Shown: positions 1 through 20,888 of the stretch, one piece after another | How the letters are laid out: each line of letters starts with the position of its first letter | Numbering within the stretch: the stretch's first letter is position 1 | DNA from: a virus | Length of the DNA: 64,000 bases | IMG/VR virus record: IMGVR_UViG_3300001918_000004 | Reading direction: 5' to 3' (one strand) | Notes under the pieces: generated by a model | Told to the model about the DNA's origin: nothing | Seen by the model: the letters and a program-made list of their open reading frames with translations, nothing else | Databases searched by the model: none | Translations under genes and position numbers: made by a program

Positions 1-799
1 CAGCTAAGTCCGATTCGTACGGAGACATCAATTGGTGTTCAAATACATTGTGTTTGAGTTCGACGCATCGTTTAGCCCGCTTTAAGTGTGTCTCGTAGGT
101 TTCAGTCGTGTCGTTGTTGTAACTAATCCGAGCACAACACGAACCGGATACAGCGAGATGCTTAAGTGGAATGCCTTGTGTCGGTAACGGATCAGGGCAT
201 TGCTCAATGAACGGAATATGCCATTCACCTGGATACAGCATCGTTGGCGTAGATTCGTAATGAATTTCACGAATCTGCTCTGCTAAACGCCGAATCGCCG
301 GATATACCCCGTCAGCACAACGCAATCGAAACCAATTATCCCAACCGTAGTGATCTGCGGTAATCACACAAACAGACCACGACCAGGGATGTAACACTAA
401 GTTGGTTTCTTGTTTATGAATACCAATGCGTTTCAGCCACAGTTGCACGTCGTATGCGCTGTATCGAAAATCATCCCACGCTAAACCAGCTTCGAGACAT
501 TGATCTTCCGTTGCAGGCGCACCTGACATTCCTTTTTGTTCGGCAGTCCACAACGGTTCATACGGGTCTTCGTTAACACGGGCGGCTAATCTGTCAGCGG
601 GAATTGCCCGTGATGAGTTAGCGTTTAAACTCAAATAAGAGTCTGAGGAACCGAGTCCCATTACATCGTCTGTCTGCACAAATAGACGATGAGTTCGCAA
701 CTCGGCTAACTTTACGGTTGGGACTTCAACAAGATAGGTTGTGACGCGAATACCAGTTAACGCCGCAACACTGTCGGCTTTTAATTGAGGTAATTTCAT
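1..799 (-). CDS. thyX: Flavin-dependent thymidylate synthase ThyX (partial; runs off the window edge; absent from the ORF track)
   Basis: Manual translation from ATG at 799: MKLPQLKADSV...LAELRTHR...SLNANSSRAIP...GIHKQETN...WDNWFRLRC...GEWHIPF...CARISY...VFEHQ. The ATG overlaps the dUTPase stop (TAATG). Confidence 0.85.
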   Translation of the reverse strand, partial: MKLPQLKADSVAALTGIRVTTYLVEVPTVKLAELRTHRLFVQTDDVMGLGSSDSYLSLNANSSRAIPADRLAARVNEDPYEPLWTAEQKGMSGAPATEDQCLEAGLAWDDFRYSAYDVQLWLKRIGIHKQETNLVLHPWSWSVCVITADHYGWDNWFRLRCADGVYPAIRRLAEQIREIHYESTPTMLYPGEWHIPFIEQCPDPLPTQGIPLKHLAVSGSCCARISYNNDTTETYETHLKRAKRCVELKHNVFEHQLMSPYESDLA

Positions 800-1419
800 T
801 AGTGTGATCCTGAACTACCGAATCCGTTGACACCTCGCTCATTGTCCGGTTGCGCTTCTGTTAACAGCGTTGGCACGTCTTTCACAGCCGGATCGACATA
901 CACAGCGTTAACTGGATCGTCAAACGCTACTGTTGGATCGTCTGTGGGATCTTCGTCTGGGTCGGCAACCACAACGATGTTTTTGGGTGTGTAAAGCAGC
1001 ACAGGAGCAAACACAACTTGAGCGATTTTTTGATGTTGGGTGATGGTCAAAACATCGCGACTCAAATTGATGATCAAGACTTGGATTTCTCCGATGTAGC
1101 CGTTATCTATAGTTCCAGGGCTGTTGACAATCGAGATGCCAAGGGAACCCAAGCCGGATTTAGGGCGTACTTGCAACTCAATGGTTAGGTCAGCACCTAA
1201 CACCCATTGGCATAGTTTACGCACCCAAAACGGGACTTTTGGAATTAAAGCATGGCAGCCGGTGTCGAAGGTGTACCGGTCTCCAGGCTGTAATTGAACG
1301 GCTGCATCCGACTTTAAATTAGCTCTGACATCTAAACCAGAATCCGTAGCATAGGCACGGGTAGGTTGTAGTTTTTCAGACAGACAGACAAATTGGGCGA
1401 CTCTATTCAAGCGTTTCAT
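799..1419 (-). CDS. dut: Trimeric dUTPase
   Basis: Motifs DSGLDVRA, RPKSGLG, NSPGTIDNGYIGEI, KIAQVV, RGVNGFGSSG. Probable start is the ATG at 1419. There is an acidic linker before motif 5. Confidence 0.95.
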   Translation of the reverse strand: MKRLNRVAQFVCLSEKLQPTRAYATDSGLDVRANLKSDAAVQLQPGDRYTFDTGCHALIPKVPFWVRKLCQWVLGADLTIELQVRPKSGLGSLGISIVNSPGTIDNGYIGEIQVLIINLSRDVLTITQHQKIAQVVFAPVLLYTPKNIVVVADPDEDPTDDPTVAFDDPVNAVYVDPAVKDVPTLLTEAQPDNERGVNGFGSSGSH

Positions 1420-1747
1420 GGGGTAACTCATGCATGCGAAGGATATAACGCAAAACGACAGGGGGTATAACAAAATCAGTTAAGACTTCTGGGTACGTCT
1501 GACTGTCGTATCGCTTTTGAAAACAAATCGGCAATCGTGGAGCCACGTAGCTCCATTGAACTTCTTGGTTCCTGACGGTTAAACGAGCTTCACCGTAGGG
1601 CCACCACGAGTTGTTTGGCGACCAAGATAACGCCACAAACTCATCGGATTCGTGCGACGTTACTCGGGGTTCAGGGAAGTTTAAGTCTTCGAGTTCTGCC
1701 TGAATTACAGACAAAATTCGCTGTCGAGTAATGTGTTCGCGCGTCAC
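1403..1747 (-). CDS. Hypothetical protein
   Basis: 114-aa ORF overlapping both neighbours in the operon. Confidence 0.6.
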   Translation of the reverse strand: MTREHITRQRILSVIQAELEDLNFPEPRVTSHESDEFVALSWSPNNSWWPYGEARLTVRNQEVQWSYVAPRLPICFQKRYDSQTYPEVLTDFVIPPVVLRYILRMHELPHETLE

Positions 1748-2421
1748 GAAAGTACCTCTTCATCTAGTTGAAACTTAGGCATAGTGCCTGACCAAATCAT
1801 GTCTTTTGAGCTTGATTCGCCTGTGTTGGACGAATAGGTTGCTCGATAAAACTGACCCAACCAAAAGAAGTAGCTGCTCAGTCGGTTCAAAAAGCGGCAC
1901 TGGTTGATGTAGCAGTCAGCTAAGTCTGGGTGCAGTCGTAACTCTTTAGTGATTTCGGGCGATTCCCACCATTCAATGAACTGCGATTCGAGTTCTCTTG
2001 TGGCAATGCGAAGTTTGTTGACGGACACACAGATCGGTCTGTAGCTGTGAATAAAGTCGGAAATTGAACCGGCTCGAAGTTTGTACCACTCGATCTCTTG
2101 AGTAATGAATTGGTACGCAGCTTCAGGGAACAAATACTCTGTGCGATTAGGTGAATTACCTTTAAACCACACAAACGCACCAAACGCATGCAATGCTTCA
2201 TTTAGCCACAAGCAGAACCGTACTGAACGAGTCATAGCTAACGGGTCAGACTGAAATACAACATGCTCGTCTATTGCTTGCTGCAACGCCTCAATCTTGC
2301 CGTAGGTTTTACATGCAGCGGAGGACTTTGACAGGATTGCTTTGTTCATGAGCAAGCTAAACCCGATGTCGCCGTTGCTTAAGCCCTCTCGGTATCCTGT
2401 TGTTAAGCGTTCTGTATCCAT
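1744..2421 (-). CDS. PduO-type ATP:cob(I)alamin adenosyltransferase-like protein
   Basis: NGDIGFSLL..SKSSAACKTYGKIEALQQAI resembles TGDxGxTSL..SKDSxRIEAYGTVDELNS. KLRIATRELE resembles ARTVCRRAER. FLNRLSSYFF resembles YLNRLSDxLF. Confidence 0.7.
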   Translation of the reverse strand: MDTERLTTGYREGLSNGDIGFSLLMNKAILSKSSAACKTYGKIEALQQAIDEHVVFQSDPLAMTRSVRFCLWLNEALHAFGAFVWFKGNSPNRTEYLFPEAAYQFITQEIEWYKLRAGSISDFIHSYRPICVSVNKLRIATRELESQFIEWWESPEITKELRLHPDLADCYINQCRFLNRLSSYFFWLGQFYRATYSSNTGESSSKDMIWSGTMPKFQLDEEVLS

Positions 2422-2445
2422 AAGTAACCTGCTGATGTGAGTGCG

Positions 2446-2964
2446 TTACGCGTGAGTTAGCGAAGTTTCAGCCTCAGTGGACTGGTTCTCTGTTTCGGTT
2501 TTATCGACAACTTTGACCGTGTACTTTAGAGTGCGTTTGTAGTATTTCACCAAATCCTTAATCACATCTGCGGTTTCAAAATTCCAAGGAAAATCTAAGG
2601 TGTAGATGAGTTTGTTTAAGGCGTCTTTGGCGCATTCTGGGTCGTTTGGGTCAAACGTGAAGCGGTTTTTATCGTGATCGTCATCGTCGTCATTGGCTGA
2701 CGCGTCGTACGGGTCGTAAGTCGCCAGGATAACCGAGGGATAGTCTAACGCCAGTTGAATCAGAATACCGGCTGCTCCTGAACCTGGAATGGGTCTCAAA
2801 GCAAAGTGAACGTTAATGGAATCTTCGTCATACACCAGCACTACATCGTACTTGTGCCGGATTTTAGGTATAGCGTTCAAACCATAACCTCGGTTAACTG
2901 CCTCTATCTTAAGCCTATTCGTTTGACTTTGAGGAAAGTCGTATTGCGGCGACATACAGCGCAC
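2446..2964 (-). CDS. Hypothetical protein
   Basis: 172-aa ORF in the operon with an acidic stretch. Confidence 0.6.
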   Translation of the reverse strand: MRCMSPQYDFPQSQTNRLKIEAVNRGYGLNAIPKIRHKYDVVLVYDEDSINVHFALRPIPGSGAAGILIQLALDYPSVILATYDPYDASANDDDDDHDKNRFTFDPNDPECAKDALNKLIYTLDFPWNFETADVIKDLVKYYKRTLKYTVKVVDKTETENQSTEAETSLTHA

Positions 2965-3098
2965 ATAGTCCGGTTCCCATTAAGGCGTACTCGATAACCA
3001 TCTCAAGTACACACCCGTACAGAACACACACCAATACCACTGTTGCCGCAATACACGTGTCCGGCCAATCCAACTTAATCATGATGATCTGCTGGAGG

Positions 3099-3398
3099 TT
3101 AAGGCTCGATGCAGCGGTCGTAGCCAATAAAACCTACGGCTGTGTGTGTAGGACTCGGGACGTTGAGTGTGTTCTCTTCGGGGTAGGGTGGTTCGTGTCT
3201 CCGGTAGGGTTCAGCTAACTCTCTCGGCACGTTTTCCATGTCGTGCAGCAGCCGTAGCATGGGATGCATTACGTCAGGCGAAGCTCCAGCTTTAATGAGT
3301 TCAATCAGCGACTCGCGTATTGCTTTACTCAACTGATCGCATACGGAAATGATTGTTTCGTTGTCTCGCATATTTGTAATCCAGGTAATTGTGAACAA
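3099..3398 (-). CDS. Hypothetical protein
   Basis: ORF in the co-oriented block; start uncertain. Confidence 0.5.
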   Translation of the reverse strand: MFTITWITNMRDNETIISVCDQLSKAIRESLIELIKAGASPDVMHPMLRLLHDMENVPRELAEPYRRHEPPYPEENTLNVPSPTHTAVGFIGYDRCIEP

Positions 3399-3737
3399 AG
3401 TCTTATGTGCGTTGCACGCTTACTTAGCGTAGAGTTTGATAACGATGTCGCAGACTAGGATGCTGCCGACGTACCACATCAACCACTCTGTTAACGACAC
3501 ACCTACTTGAGATGCTGCGTGAAATACGCACACGGAAATGCACACTGCTAAGCAGTGACTCCAAAGTGAACTAATCATCGAATCAACGGGGTTAAGGTCA
3601 ACTCGAATTTAGCCGAGCACTCGTACTTACCCGACAAGCATTGAAAGAACCGCTTCGTGTTGTACGCCGTTGCCTCTTTCGTTCTGCACTCAAAAGACAT
3701 GTGAATCAGCCATACAATAAACGAAAGCAGACATCGA

Positions 3738-3953
3738 TCAAGTCCCTTTAGCATTGAGCCGCTCCTTCCGTTTCAGACGCTCAGCTTCGAACTGATCCGC
3801 CAACTGCCAAGCGCAGCTTAAGCACTCAGTAATGTACAGCGGGTTAGGTTTAGGGTTCGCTTCAATAAAGCGATGAACGTACAGGTCAGCCATTAGCGTA
3901 ATACGGTCTAAGGATTCTTCGGCGTCGTACATCGTTTCTGGGTCTTCGTTCAT
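3738..3953 (-). CDS. Hypothetical protein
   Basis: ATG preceded by the AGAGGTTTTTT leader seen before other genes in the window. Confidence 0.65.
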   Translation of the reverse strand: MNEDPETMYDAEESLDRITLMADLYVHRFIEANPKPNPLYITECLSCAWQLADQFEAERLKRKERLNAKGT

Positions 3954-3983
3954 AAAAAACCTCTTAGGTTGTTTGGTAATGGT

Positions 3984-6900
3984 TTAGTTGCCGCCACTGA
4001 TCAGGCATTTGTCGGAATCACACGCCATTCCGCCTAAGCCTTCGTTGCGGTTAGCCTCATCTACAGCCAAGTCGTACTCACGCAAAGCAGCACTAAAGTC
4101 TGAAGTTTTACGGCGTTGTTCAACTTCAGCCACTAGCGTATGGTACGTGCCTGCATCGATAGGCTCAAACGGCAGTCTGGGAAATGTCTCTGAGTCGTTA
4201 AACCGAGCTAACAACGCCGCAGAAATGTATCCTTCATCGCTGTGAATCGCTTCAAAGATACAACGGGCTGCGATAGGAATTTCTTCACGCGTAAGCTCTA
4301 ACGTGGCAGACGTATTGAACGTTGTCCAATGCTTTTGGTTTTGCATGTAAAAATCCCACTGAGCGTCGAACGGCATCGAAGCAATGTCGATGTCGGTTTC
4401 CGCAACAGTATCCGCCCAGGAAACTTTGGTGGGGATTTCCACCAACCATTCCTTAACCCGTGGATCGTACGGGTCGTCTAATAACTTGCCGTTTGCGTCA
4501 GTAGAGCCTTGGCCTGGGACGATTTTGTAACCGTAGTCTTGGCAGGCTAACGCTACTGGATCATTGACTGCGAATGTAACCCGACGAATGAAGTATTGTC
4601 CTTTCGGCAAGTGAATGCCTGGAGACGATCCTGTTAGAAGTGATTTCGTGTTGTGAGAGTTCAGTGCGCCGGTGAAATACCATGCACCGTTATCTTCGTC
4701 CATCGCATCTACGGTAATGTCCCAGGTGCGGAGGTTTCGGATTTCAGCTTCAACTTCATTCAAGTCTCGGACTTCCTGCACTTCGTACAAGAAGGGGTTG
4801 AATGGCCCAGATTGAGCTTTACCTTGAACGCCCTTGTACAGCGGCGAATACTCTCGAAGTAACTCATCCACTCCCCATGGAGTGTTGCGCTCTTGAAAGA
4901 TCAGACGCCATGCAGGGTTCTTGTGGTAATGAATGCTGGGTTTAACGGGTTGTTCAATCAGCAACGGAATGCCGACAGCTTCGGCACACTGCTGAAAGCA
5001 CGATAGCGTTGACCAATTGGAAAACGCCACAGTCACTTTGCGGTCTTTGTTTAACCGCCCTTTCATTTCGATGACTGCACCGATAAAGGCGATAATGGCT
5101 TCCGCAGAGGACTTGCGTACAATCGTCGGTATCCGATCCGGTATGGCGTTGCCGTCAAGCTTTGCTACGCCGGTACGCTCTAACCACCGAGCTAACGCTG
5201 GAAATGTGATACTGGCTTCAAAGACTTTATTGCTACGGTTATTCAGTTTCAGTTTAATTTGAAACAACTCTTTAACCGCATCAGACAACACCTTAAAAGC
5301 ATGCTCACGTTTGGTAGTGAACCAAATAGTATCTTCGCCTTCACCGTACGAATAACCGCATACCCAATACATCGCTAAAAAACGAGCAACAGGTGCAGTG
5401 ATGACGTTTAAATGCTGTACGGCATACACATCACCATCTTCTTGACGCGTAACGTGCGGAAACTTAGACGTGTAATTACCTAACACATGGAAACAAACAT
5501 CCCCAGGTTGCAGGTCTTTAGCGCACTTCCACTCGCCCGTATTGTGCATCTGAATGCGGTGGTTACGGGTGAAGTAGATTTGACGACCGTTACGGAACAC
5601 CACTAAACGCAACGGTTGATAGGTGTTGGTAAAGCTCAGTAGGCTCGGAATGCCGCGAACGGAACGGCTGGAGCATTTTTCAGCTTCGTCGTAATACAAA
5701 AGACCTTGATCTAGGTTACGCACTTGCAGAAGATCTGTGCAGCCTGCGGGTTGGTGTCCCGTAAACCGAGTCGGGCAGCGAAGGTTTTGTTGCTTGCAGT
5801 ACAAGCTAATTGTACGTTCGACAACCTCTTTCCATTGACTTAACAACGTCCGCTCTAAGTACAGAAACACTAAGCTTTCGCAAGCTTGATACCCTGCGAT
5901 GTCATGCTCTTTGTGAATGGACAGCGGGATGTAGTCTAACGTCTGTACTGTTTTACCCCACCGGTGCGGGCGACCGGCTTGCCACCACTCTAACCAACGC
6001 TGACCAAACAACGCTACAAAGTAGTCCACGGCTCCAGTAAAGGTGACTTGAGTAATGGGATCAATCTCTCTACTGTATCTAAAGCGATCTTCGTGGAAGT
6101 TTTGATGCAGGTGACTGGCGTTCATCAACGCACTAACAATAAATGCTAACTTGATGCGGGTTAGATCCCATGGTGTGTTTACGAACCGAATCAAGTGAAC
6201 GTCGCTTAGACTGCACATGAAATCTGATCCGATCACCTCACCGCAGTTATGAACAACCAACTGATTCGCTAACGTAAACCGATGCGTGTCTTCGACTGTA
6301 CAGCAATACACTGGAGCCGTTGTATCTAAGTTGCGAACACGACGCACCGTAAAATACTTGTCGATGCTTGTGGGAATGTCTGGCATGGGGATTGCAGTAT
6401 CTCGCTGCAACCGCTTAAGCGGCAGACGCACCGCAATAGACAACGCATGAATACCTGCACAACGGACTCTAATGCGACGGGTTTCTGGATCTAAACGCCG
6501 AATGGAGTAGATACGGTTCAGTTGCAGCAGCGTTTGCACGACTTGAGCTTCGTCGTCAGAGCGCATGATTACGTCGTACGTTGGTAACAAATTCTTACCC
6601 GCACCTAAGTACGATCCAAACGCATCATAAAAACCAGCCAAAAACGATAACTGATACGGAGATCCGAGCGTAAACACTAGCTGAAGGGTATCCGCATCAA
6701 ACTGGCGTTCGTAACCCCAAACGTACGCATCTTCTTCCGTAACGTTGCTGTCTTTGTCTGCAAGCATTAAAGCGCGCTGACCTGTTTCGGGAGATGTATT
6801 TGCGTAAAGCGGTGTCCAGTGAAGCACATCGCCTTTCACTAACTCATCGGCGTGTTTAGTCTGATCCAGCCCTAACAGAAAGAACTTGTGCTCTGGCGTA

Positions 6901-8846
6901 CACGTAACAGTTAAGCCGCTGTACAGCGTAATCTCAACCAACGGTGAATCTGCTTCGGTTTGTCTAAAGCGGGTATTCACCCATTCCGAACCAGTCCACA
7001 CCGTTACATCTTTCCCTACGATGTCTTTGATTTGACGCACACCTTTGTGGGTTGCAACGAACGTTTCACCAACAAAACATGGATTCGTGCCGTAACGCAA
7101 CAAGCGGTGACGTAATTCGGGGTAAGGCATCTGCGGATAATGCTCTCTAATCCAGGCCTCACCTTGCCCTTCGTCTAATGCTCGAATGAAAGACAGCTTT
7201 TCTGAACGGGTGTGCCATAGGTCAGCGTTACACCGAGCAATTGACTCGTTAGCGTAAAGAATCGCACCTTCACCGGATTCGTACTGTTTCGTGACGGCCT
7301 CTAACACTTCTTCGTAGGTCGGCTTGTGATGGAACACTCGAGACAGATTCGCCATACGCATGGCATCACGGTCTGGATCTATGACCCAACTCCCGTCCGG
7401 TTTCTGCTCCCACAAATTGTCTTTAGCGACTTTGAACCGCTGATCTGCGTAATTTCCGATTTGAATGTTCGCAGAGTTGTGCGTCAACACACCATTCGCA
7501 AAGAAGCAGTGGGCTTCTTCCACTTCGATGTCGAGCACTGGAACGAGGTTGTGTAATCGCTTATGCACAATCAAATCCGGTACTAACCCATCCGGCGTGT
7601 TGCGGAGCATGTAATCGCCGGTGTACGTGAAGATAGCGGGAGACCACACGGCTTCTGGGTAGTAACGGCACGGCGTTTCAGGTTCTTTGCCAGCGATACG
7701 CAAGATGCGGTACTGAAGCGAGTCTTTAATGATTACGGCGTTGCGGTGTCGATCTGTACAACGCAGTGCCGTACCACTTTCAAGCATGAACTCCCACGTC
7801 TGCTGGTAGCCTTGCCGAAAGACGTTTAGCACTTTACGCAGACCGATGGGGGTCTGCACTAAATCCCCAACTTGAATGTCTTTGATTGGGACTGCGCCTT
7901 TGTCTGTGTCTATCGGAGTATCTTCAGGTAAGCAACGACGGACGTTTCCGGCAACCACTGCAAGACCGGCTTCGTTGAGCAACAAGCACGCTGTTACACT
8001 GTCCAAACGTGAATCTAACGCGTTGTTCAAATACCGAGCGGCGTTGATGAAAAGATCAGGCAATCGGCTAGGGTTACTACGACCGCCAAACCCTTTAATA
8101 CGCGCACCTTGTTTACGGACGTGGCTAATATCGACAACGACGTGAATAGGCTCTGTTTCAGATACGCCTTGCGCTACGTTTGGCGGAAGTTCTGTGTCTG
8201 ATGTAGCTAACCGCATGAAAGAGCGATACGCTTCAACCCAGCCTTCTCTACTGTCTCCAACGCGAATCGTGACCTGTAGCACGTTGTCCGAGTTGCGTTC
8301 AGCGTACTTTGTGGTTTTTGGATACCCTGGATGGACTGCACCAAACGAACCTTGAATCTCCACCGAAAGTCTGTGACAGATGAATGGAGCTTTTTCAGGT
8401 TCCAAAAATACAAGCTCTAGGTTTGCACCTGTACCTGAACCTTGACACAGCAAATCAAACAATACGGCGATGTCGTCTGTATTTTCGATGTTGCGGGAGC
8501 AGCAGTTGTACAGCCCGTAATAGTTTTCAGGGCGTTGTGACCATTCGGTTCCGGCGACCCATAAGTTGCGTCCGCTGGGTAGTGCGTACAGCGAATACAG
8601 ATGCGAGTACAGCAGCGAATCTGTATCTAGCTGCCGATAAAAATCCTCGACTTGTTCTGGGGTATAGCCTAACGCCTGTAAAAACTGGCGTTCGTATTCG
8701 GGTGAGACTTTACCCATGGACACGAGTCCGTCATACACGCGTTTGCAGGTTTCTGGCCATGTTTCACGAGACCCATCCTTGTGAAATCGAGCGTATGTCC
8801 GAAAATACACGGGATCTGCGAGGGGAGCGTTAGCGGGGAAATACAT
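3984..8846 (-). CDS. nrdJ: Class II (adenosylcobalamin-dependent) ribonucleotide reductase with three inteins; about 825 aa after splicing
   Basis: PVYFRTYAR..ETW, PSGRNLW, YNCC, VVAGNVRR/SA, TNP/CGE active-site loop, QPAG/TKSLL, C-terminal ACDSDKC. Probable start is the ATG at 8846. Confidence 0.93.
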   Translation of the reverse strand: MYFPANAPLADPVYFRTYARFHKDGSRETWPETCKRVYDGLVSMGKVSPEYERQFLQALGYTPEQVEDFYRQLDTDSLLYSHLYSLYALPSGRNLWVAGTEWSQRPENYYGLYNCCSRNIENTDDIAVLFDLLCQGSGTGANLELVFLEPEKAPFICHRLSVEIQGSFGAVHPGYPKTTKYAERNSDNVLQVTIRVGDSREGWVEAYRSFMRLATSDTELPPNVAQGVSETEPIHVVVDISHVRKQGARIKGFGGRSNPSRLPDLFINAARYLNNALDSRLDSVTACLLLNEAGLAVVAGNVRRCLPEDTPIDTDKGAVPIKDIQVGDLVQTPIGLRKVLNVFRQGYQQTWEFMLESGTALRCTDRHRNAVIIKDSLQYRILRIAGKEPETPCRYYPEAVWSPAIFTYTGDYMLRNTPDGLVPDLIVHKRLHNLVPVLDIEVEEAHCFFANGVLTHNSANIQIGNYADQRFKVAKDNLWEQKPDGSWVIDPDRDAMRMANLSRVFHHKPTYEEVLEAVTKQYESGEGAILYANESIARCNADLWHTRSEKLSFIRALDEGQGEAWIREHYPQMPYPELRHRLLRYGTNPCFVGETFVATHKGVRQIKDIVGKDVTVWTGSEWVNTRFRQTEADSPLVEITLYSGLTVTCTPEHKFFLLGLDQTKHADELVKGDVLHWTPLYANTSPETGQRALMLADKDSNVTEEDAYVWGYERQFDADTLQLVFTLGSPYQLSFLAGFYDAFGSYLGAGKNLLPTYDVIMRSDDEAQVVQTLLQLNRIYSIRRLDPETRRIRVRCAGIHALSIAVRLPLKRLQRDTAIPMPDIPTSIDKYFTVRRVRNLDTTAPVYCCTVEDTHRFTLANQLVVHNCGEVIGSDFMCSLSDVHLIRFVNTPWDLTRIKLAFIVSALMNASHLHQNFHEDRFRYSREIDPITQVTFTGAVDYFVALFGQRWLEWWQAGRPHRWGKTVQTLDYIPLSIHKEHDIAGYQACESLVFLYLERTLLSQWKEVVERTISLYCKQQNLRCPTRFTGHQPAGCTDLLQVRNLDQGLLYYDEAEKCSSRSVRGIPSLLSFTNTYQPLRLVVFRNGRQIYFTRNHRIQMHNTGEWKCAKDLQPGDVCFHVLGNYTSKFPHVTRQEDGDVYAVQHLNVITAPVARFLAMYWVCGYSYGEGEDTIWFTTKREHAFKVLSDAVKELFQIKLKLNNRSNKVFEASITFPALARWLERTGVAKLDGNAIPDRIPTIVRKSSAEAIIAFIGAVIEMKGRLNKDRKVTVAFSNWSTLSCFQQCAEAVGIPLLIEQPVKPSIHYHKNPAWRLIFQERNTPWGVDELLREYSPLYKGVQGKAQSGPFNPFLYEVQEVRDLNEVEAEIRNLRTWDITVDAMDEDNGAWYFTGALNSHNTKSLLTGSSPGIHLPKGQYFIRRVTFAVNDPVALACQDYGYKIVPGQGSTDANGKLLDDPYDPRVKEWLVEIPTKVSWADTVAETDIDIASMPFDAQWDFYMQNQKHWTTFNTSATLELTREEIPIAARCIFEAIHSDEGYISAALLARFNDSETFPRLPFEPIDAGTYHTLVAEVEQRRKTSDFSAALREYDLAVDEANRNEGLGGMACDSDKCLISGGN
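4650..5741 (-). mobile_element. Intein 3 in NrdJ (364 aa, LAGLIDADG-like endonuclease)
   Basis: Begins CTDLLQV, has FTRNH and AFIGAVIEMKG, ends TGALNSHN; +1 residue is Thr. Confidence 0.85.
6246..7079 (-). mobile_element. Intein 2 in NrdJ (278 aa, partial LAGLIDADG region)
   Basis: Begins CFVGETFV, has CTPEH and FLAGFYDAFG, ends LANQLVVHN; +1 residue is the Cys of NP-C-GE. Confidence 0.9.
7476..7934 (-). mobile_element. Mini-intein 1 in NrdJ (153 aa, no endonuclease)
   Basis: Begins CLPEDTPIDT, has block B CTDRH, ends FFANGVLTHN; +1 residue is Ser. Confidence 0.9.
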
Positions 8847-8859
8847 AGTAACCACAGTG

Positions 8860-9852
8860 TTAGGGAAGACAATGAAGCGAACCAATCAACACCTGACTTG
8901 CAGGACTGACCGGCGTGTAGGCGTGTGTAAGTTTTCCGGTGTGCGGAATTTGCTCCACATACCGGACACGTAACTTACTCTTTTCTTGCCGCAATCCGTT
9001 CAACTGGTTGCGACGAAACATCTTGTGATACTGACTTAAAGACCGAACATGTTCTTGCTCTCTGAAAAACCGCAACGCCGGTTCGACAGATAACGGAATG
9101 ACTCGGTGATCAAACTTACGCAGGGTCACATAGTAGCTAAACGGTAATGTGCCCCAGGCCTGTCCTTGGTTCATCAAGTCCAAACCTTTGGATGACGTAA
9201 AGACTTTCTTGCTGTAACAGACTTCAAACGGAAGGTTTAGACGCGCTAAAACAGATGCCAGAACTTGAGCACTTTCTTTGTCGGGCACACGGACACGACA
9301 ACCGATAGTTAAATTTTTGGTGATGTGCCAGTAACCCACTACAGAACACATCCGACCTACAAATTCCCACAAAGATTCTTCTGTAAGTTCTTTGAAATAT
9401 TCAAGCAAATACGCAGCTAGTGATGTGCGTTCAGATACGAGTCGCAGCAGCAGTTCATCATCGTCGTGATACCCGACATTGACGTGCGGAATTTGTTCAC
9501 CGTAACGCCGAATGGATGGCGATGTAGCTTTGACCGGCGGTACATAAAACGCCGGTTGCAGGGCTGTGTTTTCGATAGTGTCTGCTTGGTTTAGGTGTTG
9601 ATGTACAGACATATCACCTAACGCTGTCGGCAATCGTTGATCCTCTGTTACGTCTATGCTGTAGCCATTGCTTAGCGTTAAGCGATAGAGCGCAACAGAG
9701 TTCGGCACAACGATTTGCTTGAACTGCATCGGTAGCCACATCAGTCCGGTGCTAACCAAAACAGGATCGGCGTACTTCCAGGCGTCTGCAACCGACATCA
9801 ATCCAAATCTGGTAATCAGGACATTAGTTCCGAGAACGGCCATTAGATGCAA
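8860..9852 (-). CDS. Free-standing degenerate intein-like (Hint + LAGLIDADG-like) protein
   Basis: AVLGTNVLITRFGLMSVAD resembles block A; LYRLTLSNGYSIDVTEDQR resembles block B with His replaced by Gln; EFVGRMCSVVG resembles LAGLIDADG; the C-terminal beta region lacks the terminal HN. Confidence 0.6.
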   Translation of the reverse strand: MHLMAVLGTNVLITRFGLMSVADAWKYADPVLVSTGLMWLPMQFKQIVVPNSVALYRLTLSNGYSIDVTEDQRLPTALGDMSVHQHLNQADTIENTALQPAFYVPPVKATSPSIRRYGEQIPHVNVGYHDDDELLLRLVSERTSLAAYLLEYFKELTEESLWEFVGRMCSVVGYWHITKNLTIGCRVRVPDKESAQVLASVLARLNLPFEVCYSKKVFTSSKGLDLMNQGQAWGTLPFSYYVTLRKFDHRVIPLSVEPALRFFREQEHVRSLSQYHKMFRRNQLNGLRQEKSKLRVRYVEQIPHTGKLTHAYTPVSPASQVLIGSLHCLP

Positions 9853-10384
9853 AGCCCATAGAACTGCTGTTAGAGCGTGACCGAGGCGGGGGGGATAATC
9901 TGCCGATAGCAGGAGTGGGTATCGGTTGATTGGCTAAAACGTTACCCGAACGATCTATAGCGGGAGTTTGGGCATCTGGTACAACTTCTACTTCCGGTTC
10001 TGGGTCAACCCAATAATCGGGGCCTGTTTCCGGGCCAGCTACAGCGGCAGGTTGAGGTTCATCGGACTGCTCCATGTCTCCGTTTAGAAGCGCAAAGTAA
10101 GCGTCGGCCATATCCATGGATAACTGAACATACCCATACGCCCGATACTGCAATTCGTCAAAGGATTTACCTCGGACTAGCCCAGACAGAATCCGAATAC
10201 TGGTGTCCAAGTAGTCGGGTAGTCCGGGTTCGTACTCGATATAAGGGTCTTGCTCTTGAACTGCTGGCTGAGGCTCTGGAGCCGGAGGTGGGGGTGGAGC
10301 CTGTTTAACCTTAGATTTCTTGGCTTGAGCCGGTTGCGGTGCGGCTGGGGCAGCAGTAGGGGGCTTAGGTTGGATCATTCTCAT
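9824..10384 (-). CDS. Hypothetical Pro/Ala-rich protein
   Basis: 186-aa ORF between polA and the intein-like gene. Confidence 0.65.
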   Translation of the reverse strand: MRMIQPKPPTAAPAAPQPAQAKKSKVKQAPPPPPAPEPQPAVQEQDPYIEYEPGLPDYLDTSIRILSGLVRGKSFDELQYRAYGYVQLSMDMADAYFALLNGDMEQSDEPQPAAVAGPETGPDYWVDPEPEVEVVPDAQTPAIDRSGNVLANQPIPTPAIGRLSPPPRSRSNSSSMGFASNGRSRN

Positions 10385-10439: not shown

Positions 10440-12356
10440 TTACTTGTCCGACCAGTTCGGCCCGATGCCGACGGTTACATCTACCCGCACACGCTTTAAG
10501 AAGGTTTGGGCGGCTCGAAGCATACAAAACCGGACAAACTCACCGACTTCCTTACCCCGATCCGCATCGGTTTCTGCCACAATTTCATCGTGTACAGGCA
10601 GCAGCAATCGAGCATAGTAGTCAGCCCGCTCAAACCCTTCTTGGATCAAAATGCAGGCAAGTTTTGTGATGTCCGCAGACGAGCCTTGCACGGGAGCGTT
10701 TACCATGGAAGAGTAGATTCGTTGCGAGTCTTTAGGCCAAGCTCTAATGCGTCCAGCTAAGGTTTTGCAGTGTCTAACGCCACGATCAATTGCCCGTCCT
10801 GTTGCTCTGTGGTACTCTGCTAACTTCGGATACGTCTTGAAGAATCGCTCCCGCAGCACAGTAGCTTCTTCCAAAGAAATCGTCTTGTTAAACTTCAATT
10901 TCACATAGTCCTTGAATTTTTTCGCCCCCATTGCATATTGAAACCCTAAAACAATCACTTTCCCGTCACTACGAATTTCTTTCGTAACTTCTTCAATCGG
11001 GATGCCGTACACACCGGATGCAGTGGCTTTGTATAAGTCATTGTTCGGATCATCAAAGACACTCAGCAGTGTTTCGTCTTGACTCAGTTCAGCTAACAAC
11101 CGTGGCTCGATTTGGCTGTAGTCTGCGATAACTAAAACCTTACCTTCATCTGCAATGAACTTGCTACGAAACAACGCCCCTCTAGGGATTTGCATCAAGT
11201 TAGGTTGAACACACGAAAACCGACCTGTATCTGTGCCGATTTGCAAGATGTCTGGGTGAATCCGACCTGTAACGGCGTTGAGCTTGGACGGTAGTTTGTC
11301 CAAGTACATTTTCATGAGTTGTGCGGTTTTACGATACGCCCGTAACGCCTCAATCACCGGATACTCCCCAACAGGCAAGTTCCCCAATTCGGCGTTGCTT
11401 GTAGATTGAATGGGAACACCTAATTCGTGGATTTTCATCAACAGTTGTGACGGACTAGCAGCGTTAAAGCGAGTCGTGCATCTGCCGTCTAAGGTGTAAC
11501 GCTCATAGATGCCTGGTAGTTCGTCTAAGACCGCTTCGCTTTGAGATTCAAGTATCGGCACAAATTCGTCCCGCATTTGATTCCAAGCGGTTAAATCTAC
11601 CCTCATGCCGGTGTACTGCATGCTGGCAACTGCACGTAAACACGAAAATTCAAGTTCCGCAACGTATTCTAGTTTTTCGTGCCGCAACGCCTGAAGTAGT
11701 TTCGGTACTAACTTAACGAACACTAAGGTGTCTTGGGCGGCGTATTCAATCTGTGCGGGAGTAAGCTCAAGATTACCCCAATCGCTGACCTGCATAGACT
11801 TGTCCAGCACTTGCCCGACATAGCGGCGTACCACAGCTTTTAATGAGGATCCCTCACCGTCCTCCGGCGTGATTCCCTTAAGCAGCACCTTGTCTGCCAG
11901 CAACGAATCAAAGTACAAACGGCTTGATAGATCTAAGCCTCTGGCCCACAGTTGCCGTAAGTCGAAGCTTAGATTGTGACCGCACCAGCGAACGTTGCTG
12001 AGACCCAACACAGACATCAACGCATCAGTTAAAGGCGTGAGGTTTTCGAGGTTTTCGTCGAGTGACTTAGCGATGCGGTAATAGTCAATCACTAACGAGT
12101 AAGGTTCTTGTGCGGTTGCGTTGGGTTTGAACTTGTGAACAACTTGATCCGAAGCCTCTGGGATTAGAGCTAACTGAATCGTGCGGATATACGCGGTGTA
12201 GGGATCAAGTCCAGACGCATACGACAAACCTTGATATTTTGGATGCACAAAAGTTTCTGTGTCCAACGCAACGTAGGTTTGTGTTTGTCTGGGCAGCAAC
12301 TCGTTTAGTTCGGATAAACTGCGCGTTAAATCCGTTAGCGTCTGCACATATTTCAT
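10440..12356 (-). CDS. polA: Family A DNA polymerase with 3'-5' exonuclease
   Basis: Exonuclease motifs LDTET, HNLSFD, YAAQD; GTDTGRFSC..PNLMQIP; motif A ADYSQIEPR; motif B K..VLGFQYAMG; motif C VHDEIV. Confidence 0.96.
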   Translation of the reverse strand: MKYVQTLTDLTRSLSELNELLPRQTQTYVALDTETFVHPKYQGLSYASGLDPYTAYIRTIQLALIPEASDQVVHKFKPNATAQEPYSLVIDYYRIAKSLDENLENLTPLTDALMSVLGLSNVRWCGHNLSFDLRQLWARGLDLSSRLYFDSLLADKVLLKGITPEDGEGSSLKAVVRRYVGQVLDKSMQVSDWGNLELTPAQIEYAAQDTLVFVKLVPKLLQALRHEKLEYVAELEFSCLRAVASMQYTGMRVDLTAWNQMRDEFVPILESQSEAVLDELPGIYERYTLDGRCTTRFNAASPSQLLMKIHELGVPIQSTSNAELGNLPVGEYPVIEALRAYRKTAQLMKMYLDKLPSKLNAVTGRIHPDILQIGTDTGRFSCVQPNLMQIPRGALFRSKFIADEGKVLVIADYSQIEPRLLAELSQDETLLSVFDDPNNDLYKATASGVYGIPIEEVTKEIRSDGKVIVLGFQYAMGAKKFKDYVKLKFNKTISLEEATVLRERFFKTYPKLAEYHRATGRAIDRGVRHCKTLAGRIRAWPKDSQRIYSSMVNAPVQGSSADITKLACILIQEGFERADYYARLLLPVHDEIVAETDADRGKEVGEFVRFCMLRAAQTFLKRVRVDVTVGIGPNWSDK

Positions 12357-19406: not shown

Positions 19407-19681
19407 GATATTTTTCGACGGTTCTTCAACCTCTGTTGCTGGCGTAGGTTTAAAGCCATACGAGGGCGCAGGCTGCGGTTCTCTGGCGTTTCTTCGGTAT
19501 CGGTTGTCGGTTGAGTGTATAGGTTTAAGAACGCCTCAACCTGCTCATCTGTACCGTGTTGCGCGACTAAACGCAACAAGTCAATGGGAGGTTTTATCTG
19601 TGTATTCATGATGTAGTGTGGTGTTACGAAACAGCGGGAGAAATAGATAACATGACACGACCTAAATTGTGGGCGGAGCAC
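19397..19681 (-). CDS. Hypothetical protein
   Basis: Short ORF; true start probably at MNTQIK. Confidence 0.45.
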   Translation of the reverse strand: MLRPQFRSCHVIYFSRCFVTPHYIMNTQIKPPIDLLRLVAQHGTDEQVEAFLNLYTQPTTDTEETPENRSLRPRMALNLRQQQRLKNRRKISCS

Positions 19682-20226
19682 GCATCAGCAAAGGCTTTTG
19701 TTGGGTTGTTTCCGATGTAAATCAACGCACTACCCTTGGTGCTGCCTGTGGCTTTTGTGTTGAGCAAATCTAGCTTCTTTTGAAACTTCAACCGCCCTCG
19801 AATGAAGCAAATCGGATAGTCGTACAGCGGCGCAAACCAATGCTCAGATGTGCAGGCGTTAACCAACAACAAGCCAGACTCAAAGTGCTCTAACGCATAC
19901 TCTCTGAGCATTTTGGTCACAAACGCATCTTGACCGCCTCGACCGTACGGAGGGTTGCAAAACACGGTTGAAGCATTCCATGGTTCTGTGAGGCCGTCCA
20001 ATCCGTTATCTAACCCGAAGTAACGCTCGGCTTGTACCCGTTCGTTTGCTTCGGCACAGGACGCTGGATCTAGCTCGATACTACCTAGAAACCAACGGGC
20101 AAATTGAAGAATGTGCGTCGGAGTGTACCACTCATTCGAGTTGCTACTAAACGCAAAACGGGCAGGGCTTACAGGTGTTTCGCAAATGTCTGCGGTGGGA
20201 TCAAGCAGAAGCATTACCACCCCCAA
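19624..20226 (-). CDS. Phage-type DNA N6-adenine methyltransferase
   Basis: SNEWYTP, ELDPAS, VFCNPPYG, CFIRGRLKF. Confidence 0.9.
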   Translation of the reverse strand: MGVVMLLLDPTADICETPVSPARFAFSSNSNEWYTPTHILQFARWFLGSIELDPASCAEANERVQAERYFGLDNGLDGLTEPWNASTVFCNPPYGRGGQDAFVTKMLREYALEHFESGLLLVNACTSEHWFAPLYDYPICFIRGRLKFQKKLDLLNTKATGSTKGSALIYIGNNPTKAFADACSAHNLGRVMLSISPAVS

Positions 20227-20888
20227 TAGCCCATACGCAAAAGACGACCGATGACAGCGTAGTTAGCTAAATCTAAATAGCTGTCGTCGATGCTTTCGTT
20301 TACGGCTTCACGAGAACCGACATACTGAGAGTCTTTGATCCGGATTTGAAACCCGGATAAACTCAACAAGCGCGCCATCTTGTCCCACAGACGAGTAATT
20401 AAACCGATTTCGCCCGTACCTAAAATGTTTGCGGGACTGTAGTCTCGGTTCTTGTCCAAGTGCAAGCGGTACATCCGCATGATTGTTTCCATGAACACTT
20501 TGCACTGATTCGGGTTGTTTTGTTTAGTGGGATGTTCTGGGATGATTGTGCCAGCGTCGCACCACTCGTACACCGGGATTTTTTGTTCGAGCGCATATTC
20601 ATGCTCTGTCCGTGCGCCTCTCGATTCTGTCCAGTTCGGTAGCAGCACAATCGCATCACAACGCCGCAAAAGATTCAGTGAATGCATGATCCAATGCATG
20701 TATTGAGCTTCTGTATCTTTTGTGCCAAACGTAACGTCGTGTTCCAGGTTAGCGGTGTTTAAGTGCGGACACAGCACGGTATGTCCTTGGTTCCACAATG
20801 AGATTGCGACATTACGAGCTACGGCGATATTGAACTCAACCGTCCGTGTTTCACTTGCACTGTAGGGGCCAGCGAGATATAGCAGCAT
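20214..20888 (-). CDS. Nucleoside deoxyribosyltransferase-like (DUF4406-type) domain fused to a DUF1599/Nmad1-like domain
   Basis: N-terminus LYLAGPYS..CPHLN..RCDAIVLLPNWTESRGARTEH; C-terminus KNRDYS..RLWDKMARL..ESIDDSYLDLANYAVI. Confidence 0.75.
   Translation of the reverse strand: MLLYLAGPYSASETRTVEFNIAVARNVAISLWNQGHTVLCPHLNTANLEHDVTFGTKDTEAQYMHWIMHSLNLLRRCDAIVLLPNWTESRGARTEHEYALEQKIPVYEWCDAGTIIPEHPTKQNNPNQCKVFMETIMRMYRLHLDKNRDYSPANILGTGEIGLITRLWDKMARLLSLSGFQIRIKDSQYVGSREAVNESIDDSYLDLANYAVIGRLLRMGYWGW

What the first reader, a model, noticed from the sequence alone, without database searches (positions are those of the whole stretch)
1744..8846. Cobalamin adenosyltransferase-like gene co-transcribed with a B12-dependent RNR
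Seen: a PduO-like ORF in the same operon as nrdJ, dut and thyX. Known: class II RNR requires adenosylcobalamin, which PduO-type enzymes make from cob(I)alamin and ATP. Inference: the phage supplies the activated cofactor for its own RNR, an auxiliary metabolic gene I do not associate with cyanophages. The N-terminal ATP-binding motif is degenerate, so activity is not certain.
Basis: partly seen in the sequence, partly recalled or inferred. Interest (0 to 1): 0.6.

Follow-up and report, generated by a model that had tools for sequence, protein, structure and literature searches.

The report
Phage B12-activating enzyme beside B12-dependent reductase
A cyanophage-like genome carries a very divergent but apparently intact copy of the enzyme that turns vitamin B12 into its active coenzyme, just downstream of the phage's own B12-dependent enzyme for making DNA building blocks. 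The pairing recurs in many related phages, so the virus probably secures the cofactor for its own DNA synthesis.

Summary
ORF 1744-2421 (-), 225 aa, passes Pfam Cob_adeno_trans (40 bits against a cut-off of 24). It models confidently (pLDDT 93), and its top structural matches listed are nearly all PduO-type adenosyltransferases or designed proteins built on that fold; no ferritin-like or other natural family appears among them.

It lies in a same-strand, tightly packed block: an intein-rich RTPR-type nrdJ (3984-8846), small ORFs, the PduO-like gene, orf114, dut and a thyX-like gene.

The protein belongs to a small, deeply divergent clade: 65 clusters among 1.84 billion representatives. The larger contexts I inspected are phage-like.

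The ligand and catalytic positions are invariant or nearly so in 53 members. In human/L. reuteri numbering they are F112, R186, R190, E193, N214 and S217. The GDxGxS ATP loop is present but lengthened, so "degenerate" overstates it.

In about 15 distinct phage contexts the gene lies within 4 kb of an RTPR gene on the same strand, in both gene orders, and with a 4-nt overlap in one group. All 7 virus records that are at least 90% complete and carry it also carry RTPR. Most RTPR phages lack it.

It is not unprecedented. Nodularia phage records already annotate "cobalamin adenosyltransferase" beside an intein-containing RNR, and this scan noted PduO+nrdJ pairs on other viral DNA. I found no paper analysing the link. 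Activity and co-transcription remain inferred.

The parts
1744..2421 (-). PduO-type ATP:corrinoid adenosyltransferase-like gene (P0001, 225 aa), member of a divergent phage clade
   Evidence: PF01923 at 40.2 bits against a cut-off of 24. AF2 pLDDT 93.1. Foldseek top hits listed are nearly all PduO-type ACATs or designs built on that fold. Profile of A1 against the PDB gives E 1e-11 to 1e-13. K32, F123, R142, E145 and N179 are invariant in 53 homologues.
3984..8846 (-). nrdJ, monomeric RTPR-type class II (adenosylcobalamin-dependent) ribonucleotide reductase, 1620 aa, interrupted by three inteins
   Evidence: TIGR02505 at 436 bits, PF17975, PF21995 and PF14890. Extein blocks align to the intein-free RNR of Cylindrospermopsis phage Cr-LKS4. 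ATG start at 8846.
7476..7934 (-). intein 1 (mini-intein, about 153 aa; starts with Cys, ends His-Asn, followed by Ser), inserted in the RR|SA motif
   Evidence: Hint_2 and Intein_splicing hits plus boundary residues
6246..7079 (-). intein 2 (about 278 aa, with a LAGLIDADG-like block), inserted in NP|CGE so that the residue after the intein is the Cys of that motif
   Evidence: PF14890 at 54 bits; boundaries Cys...His-Asn|Cys
4650..5741 (-). third intein-like insert (about 364 aa; Cys...His-Asn|Thr), inserted in QPAG|T
   Evidence: The gap in the alignment to the Cr-LKS4 RNR and the boundary residues. No Pfam intein hit on the internal part, so this one is inferred.
2446..2964 (-). orf172, unknown function, conserved just upstream of the PduO-like gene in the two closest relatives
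   Evidence: tblastn finds it in L003 (47% identity) and L008 (30%) at the same position. No Pfam, PHROG or NCBIfam match, and the Atlas model is poor.
1403..1747 (-). orf114, unknown function; its start overlaps the PduO-like stop by 4 nt
   Evidence: Coordinates. A homologue sits at the same position in L003. No family match, and it is unrelated to the downstream genes of L008 and L038.
799..1473 (-). dUTPase (the true start is probably internal to this ORF)
   Evidence: PF00692, NF001862 and phrog_135
2..799 (-). thymidylate synthase (ThyX-like), cut by the window edge
   Evidence: phrog_85 at 1e-27; TIGR02170 weak

Best explanation
The gene encodes a working, though highly diverged, PduO-type ATP:co(I)rrinoid adenosyltransferase. 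Expressed together with the phage's RTPR-type class II ribonucleotide reductase, it takes the host's cobamide (in a cyanobacterial host, probably pseudocobalamin) in the reduced Co(II)/Co(I) state. A conserved Phe (F123) would displace the lower ligand, and the adenosyl group of ATP would be transferred to cobalt. This keeps the Ado-cobamide pool high enough to load the newly made phage RNR during dNTP synthesis, and it could re-adenosylate cofactor lost to inactivation or light. Shown here: family membership, fold, conservation of ligand-contacting residues, and conserved genomic linkage to RTPR. Inferred: catalysis, cobamide specificity, the source of reducing power, co-transcription and any direct hand-over to the RNR.
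For: Family and fold:
- PF01923 is above its gathering score, and 49 of 53 clade members hit it.
- The AF2 model has pLDDT 93.1. Its best PDB matches are L. reuteri, human, M. tuberculosis, B. cereus and Burkholderia PduO-type enzymes, TM 0.72-0.82 by target.
- The clade profile hits ACAT chains at E 1e-11 to 1e-13.

Residues:
- That alignment puts window R138, R142, E145, N179 and S182 on human R186, R190, E193, N214 and S217, and F123 on L. reuteri F112.
- These columns are invariant or at least 94% conserved in 53 sequences that are otherwise 21-69% identical to the window protein (mean column identity 17%).
- PMC9262797 states that R186, R190, E193 and R194 coordinate both AdoCbl and ATP, with S217 supporting them.
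- GDxGxS and the following Lys (K32) are present.

Linkage:
- An RTPR gene lies within 4 kb on the same strand in the window, L003, L008, L036, L038, L009, the Nodularia phages, G001, G004-G008 and G010-G014.
- Both gene orders occur, and G011-G014 show a 4-nt overlap.
- The linkage holds across a tree with end branches of about 1 change per site.
- All 7 virus records at least 90% complete that carry the gene also carry RTPR.

The PF01923 control does not ring in Synechococcus elongatus, the one cyanobacterial control genome.
Against: - The score against the curated equivalog model TIGR00636 is only 23 bits against a cut-off of 108.
- Two Arg of the canonical RxxxRRxER helix are changed. The R191 equivalent is E143. 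The R194 equivalent is S146, in a column that varies within the clade (R in 19, S in 15). Human R194S is listed among patient variants.
- The ATP loop carries 1-3 extra residues. The clade also has a 17-residue insertion and a C-terminal extension of unknown role.
- Most RTPR-carrying phages do without the gene: 944 records have the RNR but only 10 have a hit. The closest RNR relative, Cr-LKS4, and four other cyanophages lack it. It is therefore an accessory, not a requirement.
- No corrinoid reductase or other B12 gene was found nearby.
- No biochemical data exist.
Confidence: 0.7

Rival explanations
1. The protein is a cobamide escort or loader for the phage RNR rather than a net producer of AdoCbl. 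It would bind Ado-cobamide or cob(II)amide and hand it to, or take it from, RTPR, as human and M. tuberculosis ATR do for methylmalonyl-CoA mutase, with weak or no adenosylation chemistry of its own.
For: Very tight coupling to the RNR gene, with a 4-nt overlap in G011-G014. Clade-specific N- and C-terminal additions with invariant R5 and W210 could form a partner surface. A subclade of about 13 of the 53 aligned members has K/R-P-P-G in place of GD-x-G in the ATP loop, yet two members whose contexts I looked up still sit beside the RNR.
Against: The window protein itself keeps GDxGxS, K32, R138, R142, E145 and N179, the positions that contact ATP in the human enzyme. No fused PduO-RNR protein was found, which is weak evidence. 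No interaction data exist. In known systems the escort role accompanies catalysis rather than replacing it.
Confidence: 0.15
2. It is an active adenosyltransferase whose purpose lies in host physiology rather than the phage RNR, for example altering AdoCbl-sensing riboswitches or photoreceptors, or feeding a host AdoCbl enzyme.
For: In G002 and the Microcoleus phage the gene is far from the RNR. In three fragments no RNR was seen at all.
Against: Every complete genome with the gene also has RTPR. In about 15 contexts the two are neighbours on one strand despite rearrangements. The surrounding genes are all for nucleotide metabolism or replication.
Confidence: 0.08
3. It is a decayed or repurposed helical-bundle protein with no B12 role, and the Pfam hit reflects fold only.
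For: Single-sequence similarity to solved ACATs is insignificant (E 0.16-0.7). TIGR00636 is far below its cut-off. No PHROG matches.
Against: The conserved columns of the clade are exactly the ligand-contacting positions of characterised enzymes, not only core hydrophobics. No other natural fold family competes. The clade has been kept over very deep divergence.
Confidence: 0.05

Closest known systems
PduO-type ATP:co(I)rrinoid adenosyltransferases with solved structures: Lactobacillus reuteri PduO (PDB 3CI1, 2NT8), human MMAB/ATR (2IDX, 6D5X), M. tuberculosis ATR (6WH5)
   Same: The same helical-bundle fold (TM 0.72-0.82 by target). The same GDxGx[ST]...K ATP loop. The same Phe (F112/F123), the R...R..E helix and the NRLS motif.
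   Different: About 15-19% identity. Phmmer alone does not reach them, and TIGR00636 is not met. There are 1-3 extra residues in the ATP loop and an extra conserved R-I-T N-terminus. A 17-residue insertion lies between the last two long helices, and a C-terminal extension carries the near-invariant W210. The R191 and R194 equivalents are changed. The inferred client enzyme is an RNR rather than a mutase or dehydratase.
Nodularia phage vB_NspS-kac65v151 gp176 'cobalamin adenosyltransferase' (QBQ73206.1), with gp173 'intein-containing RnR'; also vB_NpeS-2AV2 and the kac68 phages
   Same: The same divergent clade (profile E 1.5e-61). It is also a cyanophage, also about 1 kb downstream of an intein-bearing RTPR-like RNR on the same strand, and is already named as an adenosyltransferase in GenBank and UniProt.
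   Different: Only 23% identical to the window protein and in a different branch of the clade. The phage is a different type (about 145 kb siphovirus), and no dut or thyX sits beside the gene.
Adenosyltransferase-client modules: PduO with diol dehydratase in the pdu operon, and ATR with methylmalonyl-CoA mutase (from established knowledge of these pathways)
   Same: The gene for the cofactor-activating enzyme is kept next to, or expressed with, the AdoCbl-dependent enzyme it serves. In these systems the transferase also re-adenosylates cofactor after inactivation.
   Different: Here the client would be a ribonucleotide reductase and the module is viral. No reactivase, corrin reductase or G-protein chaperone gene is seen nearby.
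Other virus-encoded 'cobalamin adenosyltransferases' in UniProt/BFVD (Mimivirus LCMiAC02 A0A481Z1S5, Virus NIOZ-UU159 A0A7S9SUL2)
   Same: The same fold, and the only other viral proteins in BFVD that match at E <= 0.001.
   Different: 15-19% identity. I did not examine their contexts. Whether they belong to the same clade was not tested.

Membership tests
PduO-type ATP:corrinoid adenosyltransferase (Pfam PF01923 Cob_adeno_trans) | Score above the Pfam gathering threshold over most of the domain | tested here: met
   40.2 bits against 24, covering residues 16-189 on model positions 5-168 of 171. 49 of 53 clade members also hit.
PduO-type ATP:corrinoid adenosyltransferase (NCBIfam TIGR00636 PduO_Nterm, equivalog domain) | Score above the curated equivalog cut-off | tested here: not met
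   23.2 bits against 108.45. The protein is outside the curated equivalog and should be called PduO-like, i.e. a divergent subfamily.
PduO-type ATP:corrinoid adenosyltransferase | The helical-bundle fold of solved PduO/MMAB enzymes | tested here: met
   Model pLDDT 93.1, pTM 0.89. All 33 Foldseek hits with E <= 1e-3 that are listed are PduO-type or putative ACAT chains.
PduO-type ATP:corrinoid adenosyltransferase | N-terminal ATP-binding loop (Y-T-[KR]-x-G-D-x-G-x-[TS], then Lys) | tested here: inconclusive
   G17-D18-x-G20-x-S22 and K32 align to the human and L. reuteri motif. Y10-R11 precede it, but with three extra residues (one extra in most clade members). Whether the longer loop still wraps ATP cannot be told from sequence.
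PduO-type ATP:corrinoid adenosyltransferase | Residues contacting ATP and AdoCbl: human R186, R190, E193, R194, N214, S217; L. reuteri F112 | tested here: met
   R138, R142, E145, N179, S182 and F123 are present and invariant or at least 94% conserved in the clade. Their roles are taken from PMC9262797. Exception: the R194 equivalent is S146, in a variable column.
PduO-type ATP:corrinoid adenosyltransferase | Homotrimer with active sites at subunit interfaces | not testable with these tools
   Only monomer prediction is available. The R191 equivalent (trimer core in the human enzyme) is Glu here.
PduO-type ATP:corrinoid adenosyltransferase | ATP-dependent adenosylation of cob(I)alamin | not testable with these tools
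   Needs an enzyme assay or genetic complementation.
Class II RNR, monomeric RTPR type (NCBIfam TIGR02505), the presumed client | Score above the curated cut-off once inteins are allowed for | tested here: met
   435.7 bits against 340.05 in four stretches. Exteins align along the whole intein-free Cr-LKS4 enzyme.

The most novel reading that the evidence does not exclude
The phage PduO-like clade is a dedicated partner of monomeric RTPR. It would dock on the reductase, load Ado-(pseudo)cobalamin directly and take back damaged cob(II)amide, making it the first B12 chaperone or repair factor described for any ribonucleotide reductase. The clade-specific N-terminus, insertion and Trp-bearing C-terminus would form the docking surface. 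The K/R-P-P-G subclade would have given up ATP chemistry for a pure escort role.
Probability: 0.2. Interest if true: 0.7.

Novelty: new variant of a known kind. Interest (0 to 1): 0.5.

Why it matters
Viruses carrying RTPR are common in aquatic viromes and depend on B12. [quoted passage not shown] A virus-encoded adenosyltransferase held next to the RNR gene is a concrete, testable mechanism for part of that idea. The phage does not make B12; it would control the last activation step and so the share of the host cobamide pool usable by its reductase. For B12 enzymology, the clade is a natural, deeply diverged set of PduO-type sequences that keeps only the ligand-contacting residues and is tied to a new client enzyme. 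For annotation, the clade is missed by PHROGs and by the NCBIfam equivalog, so it is probably under-called in viromes.

Tried and rejected
- **Another four-helix or ferritin-like family:** rejected. Foldseek returns only PduO-type chains or designs built on that fold at the top.
- **Direct megablast of the 9-kb block against phages:** no match.
- **PHROGs:** no family for the PduO-like protein or its unknown neighbours.
- **Fused PduO-RNR proteins:** none found in the 'longer' search, which is weak evidence.
- **Cellular or prophage copies in GTDB representative genomes:** I therefore cannot say the clade is absent from cells. IMG/VR labels four of its carriers proviruses.
- **Identity of orf172 and orf114:** no Pfam, NCBIfam or PHROG hit; the Atlas model is poor; they are unrelated to the genes at the same position in L008 and L038.
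- **Other B12-related genes in ten further ORFs at 12-27 kb:** none.
- **Literature on phage PduO or ACAT with RNR:** four searches found nothing relevant. One virome paper lists cobA among AMGs.
- **Word-index homologue search with the profile:** recovered only 5 proteins, so contexts had to come from IMG/VR and single look-ups.
Full report
**What is there**

All ORFs from the window start to beyond 12 kb lie on the minus strand. Reading in the direction of transcription, the block is:

| Coordinates | Gene | Evidence |
|---|---|---|
| 10440-12356 | family A DNA polymerase | |
| 8860-10384 | two unknown ORFs | |
| 3984-8885 | long ORF, ribonucleoside-triphosphate reductase (TIGR02505, 436 bits against 340) with intein domains | |
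| 2900-3990 | several small ORFs | |
| 2446-2964 | orf172 | |
| 1744-2421 | the PduO-like ORF | |
| 1403-1747 | orf114 | |
| 799-1473 | dUTPase | |
| 2-799 | thymidylate-synthase-like ORF, runs off the window | |

It gives 1620 aa, exactly the length of the homologue in the closest relative. Gaps are tens of bases or 4-nt overlaps. The simple scan finds fewer promoter-like and terminator-like sites than in shuffles, and none separating PduO from dut and thyX. An operon is a fair reading, but it is not demonstrated.

No whole genome is held for the window. The contig is 88.9 kb. The nearest polymerase relatives among isolated phages are Pseudanabaena phages at 29% identity. The nearest RNR relatives are phages of Cylindrospermopsis and Synechococcus.

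**Is it a PduO-type adenosyltransferase?**

- PF01923 is met at 40 bits against a gathering score of 24.
- The curated equivalog TIGR00636 is not met, at 23 bits against 108.
- Single-sequence comparison with solved ACATs is insignificant.
- An exhaustive phmmer search of 1.84 billion representatives returns only 65 proteins at E <= 1e-3, none above 46% identity. The protein therefore belongs to a small clade that a single-sequence search does not connect to the mainstream family.
- A profile of 53 of these sequences (A1) reconnects it. ACAT chains from bacteria, archaea and human score E 1e-11 to 1e-13 and align end to end. 49 of the 53 pass PF01923.
- The AlphaFold model built on that alignment is confident (pLDDT 93.1, pTM 0.89).
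- Its best PDB matches are the PduO-type enzymes of L. reuteri, M. tuberculosis, human, B. cereus and Burkholderia (TM 0.72-0.82 by target). No unrelated fold competes.

**Active-site mapping**

In the profile alignment:

| Window residue | Equivalent in characterised enzymes |
|---|---|
| G17-D18-x-G20-x-S22 ... K32 | human G-D-K-G-F-S ... K |
| E44 | Asp of the YG.VDEL motif (L. reuteri D35) |
| F123 | L. reuteri F112 |
| R138, R142, E145 | human R186, R190, E193 |
| N179-R-L-S182 | human N214-R-L-S217 |

PMC9262797 states that R186, R190, E193 and R194 coordinate both AdoCbl and ATP, that S217 supports them, and that R191 sits in the trimer core.

Across the 53 sequences (mean column identity 17%), K32, F123, R142, E145 and N179 are invariant. 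R5, G20, R138, S182 and W210 are at least 90% conserved. What the clade conserves is the ligand-contacting set, which argues for retained chemistry.

Departures from the canonical enzyme:

- The R191 equivalent is Glu.
- The R194 equivalent is Ser, in a column split between R and S.
- The ATP loop is longer by one residue in most members and three here.
- There is an extra conserved R-I-T N-terminus.
- A 17-residue insertion (helix 155-163) is present.
- A C-terminal extension carries the near-invariant W210.

"Degenerate" overstates the N-terminal difference for this protein. A subclade of about 13 of the 53 members does replace G-D-x-G with K/R-P-P-G.

**Link to the reductase**

I collected contexts from the phage collection, IMG/VR and assemblies. 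RTPR lies on the same strand within 4 kb in:

- the window (1.6 kb);
- L003 and L008 (0.7 kb);
- L036 and L038;
- L009;
- the Nodularia phages (1.1 kb);
- G001 (4 kb) and G004 (0.3 kb);
- G005-G008 (0.1-0.3 kb, with the PduO-like gene upstream) and G010 (1.6 kb);
- G011-G014 (RNR upstream, 4-nt overlap).

In the 252-kb G002 the two genes are 54 kb apart. In Microcoleus phage My-WqHQDG they lie on two partial records of the same phage. No RNR was seen in two roughly 36-kb proviral fragments about 52-53% complete, or in a 9.8-kb contig.

All seven virus records that are at least 90% complete and carry the gene also carry RTPR. A tree of the PduO-like proteins has end branches of about one change per site. 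Both gene orders occur on it, with the RNR-upstream order on several deep branches. The linkage has therefore outlived extensive divergence and at least one rearrangement. These contexts are related phages, not independent trials, so I give no P-value.

**The reverse is not true**

RTPR-like genes occur in 944 phage records, mostly actinophages. A P0001-like gene occurs in 10. The clade profile and PF01923 find nothing in Cr-LKS4, PA-SR01, S-CBS2, PSS2 or S-CRES1. The same profile finds the gene at E 1e-40 to 1e-71 in four known carriers, which serves as the positive control. The gene is an accessory of some RTPR phages, and so far only of cyanophage-like ones among isolates: Nodularia, Microcoleus, and a relative's locus with an NblA gene two genes downstream.

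**Mechanism proposed**

The following is inference from the established PduO mechanism. The enzyme would bind ATP with the N-terminal loop and the R/E/N set. It would bind the cobamide base-off, with F123 displacing the lower ligand. Reduction to Co(I) would then be feasible with ordinary cellular flavins or flavodoxin, followed by transfer of the adenosyl group.

Because the lower ligand is displaced, the adenine-type cobamide of cyanobacteria should be acceptable. From my own knowledge, not tested here, L. reuteri itself makes pseudo-B12.

The benefit would be a larger Ado-form share of a small cobamide pool when a large amount of monomeric RNR, each copy needing its own cofactor, is made quickly. 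Regeneration after inactivation or photolysis is a plausible extra in a light-exposed host, but this is speculation. The PF01923 control does not ring in Synechococcus elongatus. That fits my recollection that cyanobacteria use CobA/BtuR-type enzymes, but one genome is thin evidence.

**Comparison with what is known**

GenBank and UniProt already name the Nodularia phage homologue "cobalamin adenosyltransferase", beside an "intein-containing RnR". BFVD holds only two other viral proteins of this fold, both so named.

Notes of this scan report PduO+nrdJ pairs in a giant virus, freshwater actinophages and other phage windows. These are unchecked AI notes and I did not verify them.

I found no paper that analyses a virus-encoded adenosyltransferase with a class II RNR. 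A study of RTPR virioplankton only speculates that such viruses may enhance B12 supply.

I therefore rate this a new variant of a known kind: a known enzyme family in a divergent viral clade, with a new inferred client.

**Limits**

- No activity, oligomer, interaction or transcript data exist.
- I could not test whether the clade is absent from cellular genomes; those scans returned nothing and are exhausted.
- The neighbouring orf172 and orf114 remain unidentified.

Noticed in passing
window 3984-8846 (-): nrdJ carries three inteins at classic RNR motifs. A mini-intein sits in RR|SA. A LAGLIDADG-bearing intein sits in NP|CGE, so the residue after it is the Cys of that motif. A third insert of about 364 aa sits in QPAG|T, has Cys...His-Asn|Thr ends, and has no Pfam intein hit on its internal part. 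More than half of the ORF is intein.
   Followed up: partly
alignment A1; e.g. L036:10001-10705, L038:10001-10678: About 13 of the 53 aligned clade members replace the G-D-x-G of the ATP loop with K/R-P-P-G (or similar), yet two of them whose contexts I looked up (P0066, P0033) still sit next to the RTPR gene. This may be a subclade with altered or lost ATP chemistry.
   Followed up: partly
L038:7399-9930: In this 200-kb cyanophage-like contig the RNR appears as two ORFs (380 and 291 aa) separated by about 0.5 kb, just upstream of the PduO-like gene. An NblA gene (PF04485) lies two genes downstream. The RNR may be intron-split or broken.
   Followed up: no
window 8847-8856 and 2422-2432 (-): The bases just before the ATGs of nrdJ and of the PduO-like gene are nearly the same (GGTTACT-ATG and GGTTACTT-ATG). 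This could be a shared translation-initiation context or chance.
   Followed up: no
window 2446-2964 (-): orf172 has an acidic run (DDDDD). It is conserved directly upstream of the PduO-like gene in L003 and L008 only, and matches no family.
   Followed up: partly
window 20214-20888 (-): This ORF combines DUF4406/DUF1937 (nucleoside 2-deoxyribosyltransferase-like) with a DUF1599 'nucleotide modification associated' segment, next to a Dam methylase (19624-20226). It may be a nucleotide or DNA modification gene.
   Followed up: no
L001:1364-3276 (Nodularia phage) and L030:4018-6024 (Cr-LKS4): Transposase genes lie immediately upstream of the RNR gene in two unrelated cyanophages. The RNR region seems to be a hot spot for selfish elements (inteins, transposases, homing endonucleases).
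   Followed up: no
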